Below, in pieces: positions 15,001 to 21,000 of a stretch of DNA of 64,000 bases. A program made the position numbers. The DNA lies in contig CAWCIZ010000003.1 of NCBI GenBank assembly GCA_963795855.1, positions 512,001 through 576,000 on the forward strand. Direction: 5' to 3'. How positions within the stretch are numbered: the first letter of the stretch is position 1; every line of letters starts with the position of its first letter. The DNA comes from Vulcanimicrobiota bacterium. GTDB lineage: Bacteria; Vulcanimicrobiota; Vulcanimicrobiia; Vulcanimicrobiales; Vulcanimicrobiaceae.

Positions 15001-18000
15001 GCTGGAGACATTGCTGCGAACGCTCGCTCAGAATACGCGCGTCGTCGGCCCGCGCGACAAAACGGTGACGGCAATAACGATCGATTCGCGTGAGGCGAAG
15101 AGCGGCGCGTTGTTCGTTGCGCTGCGCGGCGAACATACGGATGGGCACCGGTTTATCGCGGACGCGGTGGCGCGCGGTTGTGAAGCCGTCGTGATGGAAG
15201 ACGCCGCCGAAGTTCCCGCTCACGTTGCGGCCGTCATCGTACCGGATTCCGCTCGAGCCGTTTCACAGCTCGCCGACGCATTCTTCGGGTCGCCGTCGCG
15301 CGCTTTGAGCGTTGCGGGCATCACCGGAACGAACGGCAAAACGACGACCGCTCACATGACCACCGCGATCATGAATGCCGGCGGCGTTCCCGCAGGAACG
15401 ATCGGCACAATCGGCGCGCGCTTCGGCGAGACGGAATGGCCGCTCGCGAATACGACACCGCTTGCCGTGCAGCTTCAGGAACTGCTGGCGCGTATGCGCG
15501 AATCCGGCGCAAAAGGCGTCGCGATGGAGGTCAGTTCGCACGCGCTCGCGCTGCAGCGCGTGGCCGACGTGCACTTCAGCGTCGCAGCGCTTACGAACGT
15601 GACGCGCGATCACTTGGATTTTCACAAGACCTTCGACGCGTACGCGTCGGCGAAGCGTCGTTTGTTCGAAATGGCTCCGCGCTGCGTGCTGAACGTCGAC
15701 GACCACTGCGGCGAACGCTGGATGCGCGAACTGCGCGTTCGTAAGCCGGTTCTCTCGTACGGCATTGCGGCGCCTGCGGACGTGCGCGCGCAATCTACCG
15801 ACGTGCGCGCCGACGGCAGCAGCTTCGAGGTCGATGGTCAGCGCTTCGAGGTGCGACTCCCCGGCCGCTTCAACGTCTCGAACGCGCTGTGCGCAATCGG
15901 TATTGCGCGCCACCTCACAATTTCGGACAAGGACAGCGCGCGCGGCCTGGCTTCGCTCGAACGCGTCCCGGGGCGCATGGAACACGTGCGCGGCGGCGGC
16001 GTCGACGTCATCGTCGACTACGCGCATACGCCCGACGCACTCGAAAATTTGCTTCGGACGCTTCGGGAAACGGCTCGCGGCCGTTTACTGCTCGTGTTCG
16101 GATGCGGCGGAGATCGCGACCGCGGAAAACGCCCCGAAATGGGCGGCATCGCCGCGCGCTATGCGGATTTTTCGTACATCACGTCCGACAATCCGCGCAC
16201 GGAAGACCCGCAGTCGATCATCGCCGACATTTTGCCGGGCATCGCCGGCGCGCCGCATGAAGCGAACGCGGATCGTCGCGCGGCGATCGAGGCGGCCGTC
16301 GCAAATGCGCAGCCCGGCGACGTCGTCGCAATCGCGGGTAAAGGCCATGAGGCGTATCAAATCGTCGGCTCGCACGTTCTGCCTTTTGACGATTTGGCCG
16401 TTGCTCGCCAAGCGCTGTCGCGCCGCGAGGCAATGCACCGATGAAACTGGCGCTCGAACGCGCCGCGGGCGCAACGGGGGCGCAAGTGCTGCGCGCACAG
16501 GATTTTCCGCCGGAACTGCGGGTCGTTACGGACACGCGTCAGTTGCAGCAAGGCGATACGTTTCTCGCGCTGCGCGGCGAGCGATTCGACGGCCATGCGT
16601 TTCTGAAGGACGCGCTGCTGGGCGGCGCGGCGGCTCTGGTCGTCGACGACGCTGCCGCAGTGCCGCACGATGCGCCCGCGCTCGTCGTGCGCGACACGAA
16701 GCGCGCGTTCATGGATCTCGCGCGCGCGGCGCGCGAAGCGTACACCGGCCGGGTCGTCGGCATTACCGGAAGTGCCGGAAAGACGACCACGAAACATTTT
16801 TTAGCGCAGCTCTTAGCCGCGTGGTTCGGCGCGGATCGGGTTCTCGCTTCGCCGGCGAACGAGAACAACGAAGTCGGCGTAAGCAAATTGCTGCTCGCGT
16901 GTTCCCCCGAACACGAGGTGCTCGTCATCGAGATGGGCGCGCGGCATGAAGGCGAGATTGCCGAACTCGTACAGGTGGCGATGCCGCACGTCGGCGTGCT
17001 GACGAACATCGGCGAAGCGCATTTAGAGATTTTCGGTTCGCGGGAACGGCTCGCGCGAACGAAGTGGGGCCTGTTTTCGCAAGGCGCGCAAGCGGTGCTC
17101 AATGCCGAAGATTCGGAATCCGCTTTACGCGCGCCGGCGTTGGAGTCGGCGCCGTTTTGGTTCGGAACCGGCGAACCGCGCCTGCCCGGCGTGTGGATCG
17201 TGGACGCCGCGACGCTCGCGATAACGAACGGCGATACGCAGCGCGTGAGCATCGACGTGCGGTTGCCGGGACGGCACAATTACCGCAACCTTGCTGCGGC
17301 GTGTGCCGCAGCGCTGCTGTTAGGCGTATCGCCGGAACGGGTCGCGCAAACGATCCCGGCACTCACGTTGCCCGCGGGACGCTATCAGAAGATCGCCGTC
17401 GACGGAAAGCCGCTCTTCATTTACGATGCCTACAACGCAAACGTAAGCGGCATGTCGGCCGCGCTCGACGCGTTTGCATGCGAGCGTGCGTCCCGGCGCA
17501 TTGCCGTACTTGCAAGCATGGCCGAGCTCGGAAACGATGCGGCCGCCATGCACGAACGCGTCGGCGCGCACGCGGCCAAAAGCGGTATCGATGTGCTGCT
17601 CGTCGGCGGCGACTTCGCGCAGTGCATGGCGCAGGGCGCAATGGCGGGCGGTTTACCGCGCAATCGTATCGTGCCGTTTGCCGATAACCGGTATGCGGCG
17701 GATTGGCTGCGCGAAAACGCGCGTCCGGACGATGCGGTCTTGTTCAAGGGTTCCCGAAAATATCAAATGGAGGAAATCATCGAGGACTTGCTCGCGTGAG
17801 GAGCTTGCGCATCGAACGTCCGGAACTGCCGTCCGGCATCGTCGGAATTCCGGTGCGTACGCCGCTCGTGCACCCCGGCGACGATCTGATCGGGCTGATA
17901 CAGCGCGCGGTCGACGGCATCGCGCGGCCCGGCGACGTTTTGGCGATCTCCGAAACCGCCGTCGCGATCGCACAAGGCCAAGCCGTCGGCGCAGAGTACG

Positions 18001-21000
18001 TGCGTCCGTCGAAGATCGCGTACGCGCTTTCTCGCCGTGCGGGCGCGTTAGCCACCGTCAGCCAGCCGGAGTCGCTGCAGATCGTGATCGACAAAGTCGG
18101 AAGGTGGAAAGTGTTGTACGCGGCTGCGATGCAGGTGCTCGGGCGCCTCGCCGGCCGCCGCGGCGCGTTCTATGAGATTCTGGGTGAGGCGATTACCGCG
18201 ATAGACGGATACACCGGCACGCTGCCGCCGTTCGAGCGCGCCATAGTCTTTGCGCCCGCGAACCCCGATGCGTTTTCGCAATCGGTTTACGATCGCTGCG
18301 GCATCGCATGTGCGATCGTCGATGCCAATGACTTGGAGAAGGCGAAGGTTCTAGGCGCGTCTTCAGGCGTGAGCCGCGAAAACATAGAGCGCGCGCTCCT
18401 TTCAAACCCCCACGGCAACGGCGACGAACAGACGCCGATCGTCGTGTTGAAGTGGCGAGCCGACGGGCCGAATCCGCTGGTCGCGGAGCCCGGCTCATGA
18501 ATTACGGATACGAACTCGCCGTCGTCGCCGCCGGATTCCTGATTGCTGGGCTGTCCGGCGCGGCCATGCTGCCGTTGCTCGCGCGCTTGCAGTTCCGGCA
18601 GCGCGCGTACGAAGACGCTCCACGGTCGCATCAAAAGAAAACCGGAACGCCGACGATGGGCGGCGTAGTTTTCGTCATCGCTCTGCTCCCAATGCTCGCT
18701 TTCGTTCACGATCCCGTCATGGTCGCGACCGTGCTCCTCGTAGCGCTGTGCGCGGCAATCGGTTTTGCGGACGACCTCATCGCCATTCGCCGGGGAAAGA
18801 ACGCCGGCTTACGCGCGCGCACGAAGTATCTCCTTACCGCGCTCGTAACAGTGATCTACCTGTGGTGGATCGTTCGCTCGCCGGCGGTGCCCGTCGACGT
18901 CATCTTTCACATGAGCGGCTACGCACTCGGCGTTCCGCATTGGCTTTGGCTGCTGCTCGGGATTTTCGCCGTAACCGGGACGATTCACGCGGTGAATTTG
19001 ACCGATGGGCTGGACGGCTTGGTCTCCGGCACCATCGTACCGCCGCTGGTCGTGCTCGGCGCTCTCGCGTGGCGAGACGGATCCGCGCCGGCAAATATTG
19101 CGGCGCTTCTCGGCGTCGGCGCGTGCTTCGGCTTTTTGGTGTACAATCGCCACCCGGCGAAATTGTTCATGGGCGACACGGGATCGCTCGCGCTTGGGGC
19201 GCTGCTTTCCGGCGTTGCAATTCTTACCGGCGAGATGCTGCTGCTCGTGCTGATCGGCGGTGTATTCGTCGCGGAAGCGCTTTCGGTAATCATTCAAGTT
19301 ACGTACTTCAAACGCACGGGCGGCAAGCGGATTTTCCGCATGAGCCCGCTGCATCATCATTTCGAACTGTCCGGCTGGCCGGAAACGACCGTTACGACGC
19401 GCTTCTGGCTGGCTTCCGTCATTCTCTCCGGCTTGGGGTTGGCTATCGTCAGATGAGCGTGCACATTCCGAACTTTGCGAGCGGTGAAACGATTCTGGTC
19501 ATCGGGCTGGGACGCAGCGGCGTCGCCAGCACGCAGGTCCTGCGCGAGCGCGGCGTGACGGTGTACGCAACCGATGAGAAGCCGCAGACGGATCTTGCAG
19601 AGCCGATCGCGCAAATCGAAGCGCTCGGTGCGTCGTTCGTCGCGGCGGACGCGTTCGATCCGCTCATCGAAAGCTCGACGGGCGCGGTGCTTTCACCCGG
19701 AGTCCCGCTCAACGGCGCGCTGGTGCGCCGCGTACAAGACGCAAACGTGCCGGTGTTCAGCGAAATCGAGGTCGCGTACCGCTTGTGCAAAGCGCCGATC
19801 GTCGCGGTAACGGGAACCAAGGGAAAGTCGACGACCACGTCGCTCATCGGGCACCTTTTCCGTTCGTGCGGCAAGACTGTTCGCGTCGGCGGCAACATCG
19901 GCAACCCGCTGATTCGCGAAGTGCTTGACGCCAAACCGCAGGACTGGGTGATTGCGGAGGTTTCGTCTTTTCAACTCGAATCGATCCGCTCGTTCCGCCC
20001 GCGCGTCTCCGTGATTCTCAACATCTCCGCCGATCATCTGGACCGCTACTACTCGATGGAGGAGTATGCGGAAGCGAAATTTCGCATCTTCGCAAATCAA
20101 AACGAACACGATTACTTCGTCGGAAACCTGGACGACGAGCGTGTGCGCCAACTGCATTGGCATAGCGGCGAAATACGAGTGCACGCGCGGCAATTGTGGT
20201 TCACGCTCGAGCGGCATCACGAGCACGCTTCGATGTTTCTCCGAGGCGATTCGATCGTCTACACGCCGGTGCATGGAGACCCGCGCCCGATCGACGTCTT
20301 GCGCGTGAACGAGATACCGTTGGCGGGCCGCCACAACGTGCAGAACGTTATGGCGGCGCTGTTGGCTGCGCTCGCCGCCGGCCTCGACCCGCAAGCGCTT
20401 CGCGATGCCGTTCATTCCTTTACGGCGATGGCGCACCGTTTGCAGCCGATCGCGGATTCGGGCGGCGTGCTCTTCGTCGATGATTCGAAAGCGACGAATC
20501 CGGGTTCGGTCATTGCGGCGTTGCAAGCGTACGACCGTCCCATCGTGCTCATCGCCGGCGGCAAGTCGAAAAATACCGACTTTACCGAACTGGGTCGCGT
20601 CATTGACGAACGCGTCAAGGCGCTGGTCGTCATCGGCGAAGCGGCCGAGGATCTCGCGGCGCACGTTTCGCGCACGCCTACCGACCGCGCTTCGAGCATG
20701 GGCGACGCGGTGCGCGCGGCTCACGCCCGCTCGCAGCCGGGAGACGTCGTCATTCTTTCACCGGCCTGCGCGTCGTTCGACATGTTTCGTTCGGCCGAAG
20801 ACCGCGGAGAAAAATTTGCCGCCGCCGTCCAAGCGCTTTCGGAGCCCGCCACGTTATGAGAGCAAGTCTTGCAGCACCGCGTCAGCCTTCGTCGACCCGC
20901 ACGCAGGAGCGGCGATCGTTCCTTTCAGCGCCGCCGGATACGCTGCTCTTCGCAGCCGTCGCAAGTCTCGTTGCCATCGGGTTGGTGATGATCTTCAGCG

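What a model noticed while it worked through the whole genome (the two positions that open the first line are those of the whole stretch)
17796..18500. Highly conserved CofE-like protein wedged between murF and mraY in the cell-wall (dcw) cluster of an F420-less lineage
In the cluster mraZ-rsmH-ftsL-ftsI-murE-murF-[g02216]-mraY-murD-ftsW-[g02220]-murG-murC-murB-ddl, the 234-aa gene g02216 sits between murF and mraY. Only its first 80-90 residues resemble CofE (F420-0:gamma-glutamyl ligase, PF01996); public pipelines name it coenzyme F420-0:L-glutamate ligase. That name is unlikely: no F420 pathway or F420 enzyme family is seen in the genome. The protein is unusually conserved and its place among Mur ligase genes is a trait of the order that is rare elsewhere. 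I propose a role in cell-wall precursor synthesis, for example an amino-acid ligase acting at the UDP-MurNAc-peptide or lipid I stage.
Evidence so far: Gene order: call 16. Pfam F420_ligase E 1e-12, model positions 2-81 of 218 only; no Swiss-Prot or NCBIfam row. PDB profile search: CofE chains 7uld, 2phn, 2g9i at E 0.008, query 22-90 only. No CofC in a six-frame search; no luciferase-like or F420H2 families; the CofD-family gene is next to rapZ; CofH_C hits are MqnC/MqnE. 120 listed relatives are 78-87% identical, some named F420 ligase by sources; alignment A5 mean column identity 87%. neighbours.tsv: F420_ligase within 2 genes of Mur_ligase_M in 297 of 352 genomes of the order, 420 of all genomes (43,307 have both families); next to the MraY family 270 of 352, 312 in all. 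ESM Atlas: nearest clusters are 228-266 aa F420_ligase-domain famil [...]
(Added by a program. Inside this text positions count along the whole contig: contig position 512,001 is position 1 of the stretch shown here. "Call 12" and the like, gene names such as g00115 and contig names such as C1 are that model's own, and its searches are not shown. The text may have been shortened before it was handed on; [...] marks where a part breaks off. The agent that wrote the report below was given it as the finding of a first reader that could run no searches.)

Follow-up and report, generated by a model that had tools for sequence, protein, structure and literature searches.

The report
Candidate peptidoglycan polyamine ligase, CofE fold
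A gene mislabelled as a coenzyme-F420 enzyme, lodged among core cell-wall genes, most likely caps the D-glutamate of the cell-wall precursor with an amine such as putrescine or cadaverine, and is a testable candidate for the enzyme behind polyamine-modified walls in Veillonella-like bacteria, with relatives in cyanobacteria and plant chloroplast lineages.

Summary
Confirmed: a 234-aa gene (17796-18500) overlaps murF and mraY; this order holds in 29 of 30 loci, with MurF fusions in 2 of 29. Correction: the whole protein has the CofE fold (pLDDT 92; Z 14.7). It is not the F420 ligase: phylum members that make F420 carry a separate cofE. The family matches 151 of 151 own-phylum genomes, 200 of 201 Negativicutes and 119 of 151 cyanobacteria, and occurs in plants and algae that keep plastid peptidoglycan genes. 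In cyanobacteria it never co-occurs with MurT, the known D-Glu amidating ligase (19 MurT genomes, 0 overlap, 3-5 separate clades). It follows murI in Negativicutes and adjoins amine-forming decarboxylases in 8 of 21 Bacillota genomes. Best reading: an NTP-dependent ligase adding a polyamine to the D-Glu alpha-carboxyl of lipid I/II. Against: 20 Bacillota genomes hold both genes; no glaucophyte copy seen; no biochemistry. The scan noted the gene order before on two other genomes, without this reading in the lines shown.

The parts
17796..18500 (+). CofE-fold amide-ligase gene (234 aa); candidate lipid I/II D-Glu:(poly)amine ligase
17934..17954 (+). N-terminal conserved motif D47...E53 (aligns with the CofE segment around S40-T41; D47 99%, E53 93% of 281 domains)
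   Evidence: role in nucleotide binding recalled for CofE
18102..18158 (+). Family-specific hydrophobic and basic helix, residues 103-121; proposed membrane-contact element
   Evidence: most hydrophobic helix; net charge about +2 to +3.5 across 281 domains; role inferred
18204..18206 (+). D137 (98% conserved), proposed equivalent of CofE D109
   Evidence: equivalence read by eye, metal-ligand role recalled
18321..18332 (+). D176-A-N178-D179 motif, aligned to CofE D150-T151-N152-G153; Asp replaces the Gly that faces the F420 ring in CofE
18405..18437 (+). N204-P-x-G-N208...T213-P214 motif, proposed equivalent of the CofE loop around E208-P214
   Evidence: equivalence read by eye, within the structural alignment range
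16441..17799 (+). murF; its stop overlaps the start of the gene; fused in frame to the gene in two relatives
18497..19456 (+). mraY; its start overlaps the stop of the gene
14978..16444 (+). murE (operon context)
19453..20859 (+). murD-like ORF (operon context)

Best explanation
The gene encodes a cytoplasm-facing, membrane-associated amide-bond ligase of the CofE fold that modifies the peptidoglycan precursor. By analogy with CofE it would use GTP or ATP and divalent metal to turn the free alpha-carboxyl of D-Glu (stem position 2) of lipid I or II into an acyl-phosphate and then transfer it to a primary amine, most likely a polyamine (putrescine, cadaverine, agmatine, spermidine or an N-acetyl form). 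It would be a non-homologous alternative to MurT/GatD and a candidate for the enzyme that makes the polyamine-linked walls of Negativicutes and glaucophyte plastids. Shown: fold, conserved motifs, gene order, fusions, distributions. Inferred: activity, acceptor, donor, stage. My odds: a peptidoglycan role 0.88; D-Glu alpha-carboxyl as acceptor 0.65; polyamine donor for the Negativicutes/cyanobacterial branch 0.6 and for this window's long-branched clade about 0.45.
For: Whole-length CofE fold with acidic/Asn motifs 93-100% conserved in 281 domains; CofE chemistry is acyl-phosphate formation then amine attack (PMC10861534, passages and section 8). dcw position in 29 of 30 loci, MurF fusions in 2 of 29 loci and P0124. 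Present in 200 of 201 Negativicutes, the class reported to carry cadaverine/putrescine on the D-Glu alpha-carboxylate (PMC10628300 passages), where it follows glutamate racemase murI in 6 of 10 loci. MurT, which amidates the same carboxyl (PMC6085368 passages), was found in 0 of 151 own-phylum and 0 of 201 Negativicutes genomes. In 151 cyanobacteria: family 119, MurT 19, both 0 (about 15 expected); MurT state needs 5 changes on an rpoB tree of 60 of these genomes, at least 3 forced; the usual downstream neighbour is kept in all 19. Orn/Lys/Arg or pyruvoyl Arg decarboxylase beside the gene in 8 of 21 Bacillota genomes of the near subfamily, 0 of 17 of the far one. N-terminal anchor of longer forms has N-out/C-in charge bias in 27 of 29. 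Homologs in liverworts, mosses, a lycophyte, ferns, a conifer, streptophyte algae and Micromonas pusilla CCMP1545, a strain with the full pathway (PMC4815162 passages).
Against: No biochemical or genetic test. In an evenly drawn Bacillota sample the family (69 strong of 201) and MurT (65 of 201) overlap in 20 genomes, as expected by chance (22), and in four genomes murT-gatD lies within 3-9 kb of the gene. 13 of 151 cyanobacteria have neither gene. No Cyanophora or other glaucophyte copy appeared among the 120 listed hits. The window's clade is long-branched, does not group with Negativicutes or with the copies of its own phylum's other classes, and differs at D138G. This genome has no SLH domain and no membrane-anchor partner, and no decarboxylase lies beside the gene here. 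I found no report of polyamine-linked peptidoglycan in free-living cyanobacteria or in this phylum; the selenomonad activity is recalled as ATP-dependent whereas CofE uses GTP.
Confidence: 0.55

Rival explanations
1. Peptidoglycan-precursor amide ligase with another donor or acceptor: ammonia (plain D-isoGln, a direct MurT stand-in), glycine or another amino acid on D-Glu, or a group on the meso-DAP carboxyl. Subfamilies may differ.
For: All cell-wall context evidence fits. AsnB-type glutamine amidotransferase fusions occur in the far subfamily (P0219, P0220, P0254, P0270). Co-occurrence with MurT in 20 Bacillota genomes suits a second site. The window's clade is divergent.
Against: No GatD-like ammonia donor in this genome. 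Negativicutes walls carry polyamine at this position and lack MurT. Two unrelated decarboxylase families sit beside the gene. A meso-DAP target does not explain exclusion with MurT in cyanobacteria.
Confidence: 0.27
2. The enzyme acts in wall turnover or on another envelope polymer (recycling of modified stem peptides, or ligation onto a secondary wall polymer) rather than on lipid I/II synthesis.
For: Amidase_3 is fused or adjacent in 15 of 21 near-subfamily Bacillota genomes; a hydantoinase/oxoprolinase-like and an HDAC-family gene follow it in 6 of 10 Negativicutes loci.
Against: Overlap with murF and mraY and MurF fusions point to synthesis; recycling genes are seldom kept in 151 of 151 and 200 of 201 genomes; exclusion with MurT is not explained.
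Confidence: 0.09
3. Folylpolyglutamate synthase of the CofE fold (Chlamydia FolC2 type; recalled).
For: CofE-fold folate ligases exist (NCBIfam TIGR04132 seen); 42 of 151 phylum genomes lack a folC match at the cut-off used.
Against: folC found in 93 of 93 genomes of the gene's own class; no TIGR04132 hit for the window protein at E 1e-5; neighbours are wall genes, not fol genes.
Confidence: 0.03
4. Coenzyme F420-0:L-glutamate ligase, as public pipelines name it.
For: Fold and Pfam match; source names.
Against: 30-33 bits against cut-offs of 181 and 274; no CofC in the genome; G042 and G046 carry a complete cofD-cofC-cofE run besides this gene; Asp in place of G153 and a much shorter segment where CofE has its F420-contacting hairpin (hairpin position inferred).
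Confidence: 0.01

Closest known systems
CofE, F420-0:gamma-glutamyl ligase (Archaeoglobus fulgidus, PDB 2PHN/2G9I/7ULD; PF01996, TIGR01916)
   Same: Whole fold (Z 14.7, rmsd 3.0, 180 residues); Asp residues at the positions of D109 and D150; likely acyl-phosphate chemistry.
   Different: About 20-26% identity; far below family cut-offs; hydrophobic basic helical insert (about 85-135); Asp for G153, Asn for E208; shorter segment at the swapped hairpin; cell-wall context; co-exists with true cofE.
MurT/GatD lipid II D-Glu amidotransferase
   Same: Proposed acceptor (C1 carboxylate of D-Glu in lipid I/II) and activation by phosphorylation (PMC6085368, PMC3266927 passages).
   Different: Unrelated fold (Mur ligase plus glutaminase); ammonia donor; the two exclude each other in cyanobacteria, Negativicutes and this phylum, but not in other Bacillota.
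Lipid intermediate:diamine transferase of Selenomonas ruminantium / putrescine transferase of Cyanophora cyanelles (activity name and ATP dependence recalled; originals not read)
   Same: Predicted reaction, membrane association, lipid-linked stage (passage), near-universal presence in Negativicutes.
   Different: No gene is named in the papers I could read; identity with this family is a prediction; no glaucophyte homolog seen here.
Chlamydia FolC2 / TIGR04132 folate gamma-glutamate ligase (FolC2 recalled)
   Same: CofE fold recruited to a non-F420 substrate.
   Different: No TIGR04132 match; folC present across the class; wall-gene context.

Membership tests
CofE-fold superfamily (PF01996) | CofE fold over the whole domain | tested here: met
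CofE-fold superfamily (PF01996) | Conserved acidic residues at the metal/nucleotide site | tested here: met
   D137, D176 98-99%; N208 in place of E208; ligand roles recalled, part of the mapping by eye
CofE equivalog (TIGR01916 / PRK13293) | Score above the curated cut-off | tested here: not met
   30.1 vs 180.65 and 32.9 vs 274 bits
CofE equivalog (TIGR01916 / PRK13293) | F420 pathway (cofC) in the genome | tested here: not met
   no PF01983 match, genome 86% complete; separate cofE where the pathway exists
CofE equivalog (TIGR01916 / PRK13293) | F420-contacting elements (G153-C155, swapped hairpin, R234) | tested here: inconclusive
   Asp at G153 and a shorter segment by sequence mapping; no residue-level structural alignment was available
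Folate gamma-glutamate ligase (TIGR04132 / FolC2) | Model match and absence of folC | tested here: not met
   no hit at E 1e-5; folC in 93 of 93 own-class genomes
MurT/GatD | Mur ligase and MurT_C domains with a GatD partner | tested here: not met
Peptidoglycan D-Glu:polyamine transferase (orphan activity) | Present in organisms with polyamine-linked peptidoglycan | tested here: inconclusive
   met for Negativicutes, 200 of 201; no glaucophyte copy among listed hits
Peptidoglycan D-Glu:polyamine transferase (orphan activity) | Membrane-associated, cytoplasm-facing | tested here: inconclusive
   N-out/C-in anchor bias in 27 of 29 longer or partner forms; window protein has only a hydrophobic basic helix
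Peptidoglycan D-Glu:polyamine transferase (orphan activity) | NTP-dependent transfer of a diamine to lipid I/II | not testable with these tools
   needs an enzyme assay

The most novel reading that the evidence does not exclude
This family is the gene for peptidoglycan polyamination: an ancient CofE-fold ligase that caps D-Glu of lipid II with a polyamine in Negativicutes, Vulcanimicrobiota (Eremiobacterota), most cyanobacteria and the plastids of algae, mosses, ferns and conifers, and that has been displaced by MurT/GatD several times. Polyamine-capped walls would then be a widespread terrabacterial and chloroplast trait rather than a peculiarity of Negativicutes and glaucophytes.
Probability: 0.45. 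Interest if true: 0.92.

Novelty: new variant of a known kind. Interest (0 to 1): 0.82.

Why it matters
Polyamine on D-Glu is what the outer-membrane tether OmpM binds in Negativicutes (PMC10628300), and N-acetylputrescine marks glaucophyte plastid walls (cited in PMC9434261, PMC3266927), yet the papers I could read name no gene for the transfer. The family gives one knock-out target in Veillonella, cyanobacteria, Marchantia and moss, predicts the wall chemistry of a poorly cultured soil phylum and of chloroplasts, adds a candidate gene to the plastid peptidoglycan set, and flags a large set of proteins misnamed as F420 ligases.

Tried and rejected
Double-GNAT gene downstream in cyanobacteria as the partner making N-acetylputrescine: it is in 139 of 151 genomes, including all 19 MurT genomes, and missing from 11 family-positive ones, so it does not co-vary. 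HDAC-family neighbour as a polyamine deacetylase: best solved relatives are generic HDAC6/HDAH, so only a lead. Exclusion with MurT as a general rule: fails in Bacillota. SLH/OmpM link for this genome: no SLH domain. Test of absence in prasinophytes that lost the pathway: the ten nearest clusters examined carried no species names, inconclusive. Plasmid search: no match. ESM Atlas: only F420_ligase-domain clusters, no new lead. Profile-profile alignment to canonical CofE stopped at residue 188. Fold of the membrane-anchor partner: Ig-like sandwich with middling scores (best Z 8.9, rmsd 3.4, 129 aligned, TMEM106B), no function. Kojima 2010 was not held; PMC5115768 and PMC12632261 had no passage on the transferase or on polyamine modification. 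No complex prediction and no read mapping were run.
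Full report
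Observation. The ORF at 17796-18500 (+) encodes 234 aa. Its GTG start overlaps the murF stop and its TGA overlaps the mraY start at 18497. Pfam gives F420_ligase at E 1.1e-12 over model positions 2-81 only, with MurF and MraY families on either side. Source names of close relatives place the organism in Baltobacteraceae; the cultured member of the phylum has an outer membrane and thin peptidoglycan (PMC9758169, passages). Of the 30 best-scoring loci from 151 phylum genomes, 29 show murF-X-mraY; the exception is from another class. These 30 were chosen by score and lean to the window's class; four further other-class loci had no Mur genes among the neighbours scanned. In 2 of 29 loci the gene is in one frame with murF, and P0124 is a further MurF fusion. 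Over 28 loci the protein is better conserved (68.3%) than MraY (60.2%) or MurF (54.8%).

Structure. With a 42-sequence alignment AlphaFold2 gave pLDDT 91.8 and pTM 0.88. The only clear match in the PDB is CofE: Foldseek E 3e-9, TM 0.59; VIA-align Z 14.7, rmsd 3.0, 180 aligned, model 14-231 against chain 2-226, next hit Z 4.6. So the whole protein has the CofE fold. Across 281 family domains T22, D47, E53, Q60, D137, D176, N178, D179, N204, P205, G207, T213 and P214 are 93-100% conserved and N208 80%. Using the CofE numbering shown and the partial alignments, D176 matches D150 and D179 matches G153; D137 to D109 and N208 to E208 I read by eye. That D109, D150 and E208 bind metal is recalled. 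CofE forms an acyl-phosphate from GTP and then an amide; G153-C155, R234 and a swapped hairpin contact F420 (PMC10861534, passages and section 8). The family has Asp for G153, a shorter segment where I infer the hairpin lies, and a hydrophobic, basic helix at 103-121.

Not F420, not folate. The protein scores 30-33 bits against cofE cut-offs of 181 and 274 and has no hit to the folate-type model TIGR04132 at E 1e-5. CofC was not found in this 86%-complete genome. In other classes of the phylum, 4 of 5 genomes examined carry a second, canonical PF01996 gene, in G042 and G046 within cofD-cofC-cofE, besides this family's gene. folC was found in 93 of 93 genomes of the window's class and 109 of 151 in the phylum.

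Family range. A search of 50%-identity representatives gave 691 hits, 150 listed; 97 of these were scanned and showed fusions to MurF, Amidase_3 (6), AsnB-type amidotransferase (4 full-length), TPR repeats and a polysaccharide deacetylase. A GTDB scan returned 80 of 580 confirmed loci, named as cyanobacteria, Sericytochromatia and Negativicutes (Veillonella, Sporomusa, Selenomonas, Schwartzia, Dendrosporobacter), a few unnamed. With the family profile, matches were found in 151 of 151 own-phylum genomes (150 at E below 1e-34; the tally includes unpublished genome G117), 200 of 201 Negativicutes (199 at E below 1e-43), 119 of 151 cyanobacteria and, as strong hits, 69 of 201 evenly drawn Bacillota. 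Named eukaryotic homologs: Marchantia, Riccia, Calypogeia, Ceratodon, Sphagnum, Diphasiastrum, Adiantum, Ceratopteris, Cryptomeria, Closterium, Klebsormidium, Cymbomonas, Chloropicon, Pycnococcus, Pseudoscourfieldia, Tetraselmis, Micromonas pusilla CCMP1545, and JGI codes that I read as Mesotaenium, Chlorokybus and Mesostigma. No named angiosperm, glaucophyte, M. commoda or Ostreococcus was among the 120 listed in either search, but many rows are unnamed and could not name ten of them. This pattern resembles the plastid peptidoglycan pathway (PMC9434261 and PMC4815162, passages); I did not check the pathway in Tetraselmis, Pycnococcus or Cymbomonas. On the family tree the plant and algal rows nest within cyanobacteria, next to Negativicutes; the window's clade is a long branch of unsure position.

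Which bond. [quoted passage not shown] MurT_C was found in 0 of 151 own-phylum and 0 of 201 Negativicutes genomes. In the cyanobacterial sample it was found in 19 of 151, none of them among the 119 with the family; 13 have neither. An rpoB tree of 60 of the 151 (all 19 MurT, 11 of 13 neither, 30 of 119 family-positive picked by me among larger genomes) needs 5 changes for the MurT state, at least 3 forced by well-supported branches, so this is a handful of independent swaps, not 19. The usual downstream gene is kept in all 19, so the loss is gene-specific. In Negativicutes the gene, with an upstream membrane-anchor gene in 10 of 10 loci, directly follows glutamate racemase murI in 6 of 10; murI-rph is a common Firmicutes order (recalled), so the pair is an insert there. 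Against this: in Bacillota 20 genomes hold both the family and MurT, close to the 22 expected by chance, and murT-gatD lies 3-9 kb from the gene in four of them.

Which amine. Negativicutes carry cadaverine or putrescine on the D-Glu alpha-carboxylate (PMC10628300, bioRxiv 2021.05.31.446380, PMC12826042; passages), and Cyanophora adds putrescine at a membrane-bound stage, best on lipid II (cited in PMC3266927). Among Bacillota genomes with loci in hand (37 of the 69, mostly 1.5 kb of flank), 8 of 21 in the near subfamily have an amine-forming decarboxylase beside the gene: an Orn/Lys/Arg decarboxylase directly downstream in 4 (one clade) and a pyruvoyl arginine decarboxylase in 4 (three places on the tree); 0 of 17 in the far subfamily, one genome counted in both. 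This genome has an Orn/Lys/Arg decarboxylase and a spermidine synthase elsewhere, weak evidence since both are common; it lacks GatD, SLH domains and the anchor partner. Longer forms begin with a membrane helix followed by more basic residues than precede it in 27 of 29, then an Ig-like sandwich, which places the ligase on the cytoplasmic face.

Mechanism and odds. Most likely the enzyme binds lipid I or II at the inner face of the membrane, phosphorylates the D-Glu alpha-carboxyl with GTP or ATP and transfers it to a polyamine. Fold, motifs, order, fusions and distributions are shown; activity, acceptor and donor are inferred. Overall 0.55; another donor or site 0.27; turnover or another polymer 0.09; folate 0.03; F420 0.01.

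Novelty. Ten literature searches (listings seen, with passages read in twelve papers and one section in full) showed no paper that ties this family to peptidoglycan or names the gene of the polyamine transfer; the only wall-related CofE mention was qimC of Streptococcus pyogenes, function unknown, which I did not compare with this family (PMC12803152, passages). The library lacks most subscription papers, including the original Selenomonas and Cyanophora work (for one of them), and I read no supplements, so a prior assignment cannot be excluded. Two earlier notes of this scan describe the same gene order and fold in other genomes; a word search for the polyamine/MurT reading found none. Verdict: real, conserved, misannotated; a new variant of the CofE-type ligases with a specific, testable role; interest 0.82.

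Noticed in passing
window 26495-27441: ddl is split over two frames near 26810; folC on G000:C6 near 85700 is likewise split. Probably indel errors of the assembly, since folC is intact in relatives.
   Followed up: partly
window 22023-23060: A DUF2332 gene (E 2e-76) sits between ftsW and murG, a second unexplained insert in this dcw cluster.
   Followed up: no
window 6919-9831: 970-aa protein-O-mannosyltransferase-like gene (PMT, PMT_2, PMT_4TMC) upstream of the dcw cluster.
   Followed up: no
window 27502-28431: 309-aa ORF after ddl with no Pfam match.
   Followed up: no
L229:12-3244, L230:1429-3621: Other classes of the phylum carry cofD-cofC-cofE (with an F420-dependent LLM oxidoreductase in L229), so F420 synthesis exists in part of the phylum; the four canonical-cofE genomes include three without a folC match.
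   Followed up: partly
L013, L018, L042, L043, L059, L062, L146-L149: A hydantoinase/oxoprolinase-like gene plus an HDAC-family gene travels with the family in Negativicutes and in another Bacillota group; possibly removes or recycles the modification.
   Followed up: partly
L042:5881-6450 and N-terminal halves of 390-430 aa homologs: Unannotated membrane helix plus Ig-like sandwich with a conserved R-x-D-G-Y-W motif; separate gene in Negativicutes, fused in cyanobacteria and plants, not found in this genome.
   Followed up: yes
L012:7300-8544 and relatives: Conserved long GNAT gene between the family gene and ruvX-DUF3727 in cyanobacteria and next to it in Sericytochromatia; does not co-vary with the family.
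   Followed up: yes
P0219, P0220, P0254, P0270; L118-L136 in part: A second subfamily (NPLGQ / IDGP motifs), sometimes fused to AsnB-type amidotransferase, is common in Bacillota; 1 of 17 examined genomes with it has MurT.
   Followed up: partly
G368, G391, G410, G452, G476, G426, G440, G464: Two long-branched cyanobacterial clades on the rpoB tree have neither the family nor MurT.
   Followed up: no
L150-L153: Cyanobacterial murT genes had no GatD-family neighbour among the five ORFs scanned per locus.
   Followed up: no
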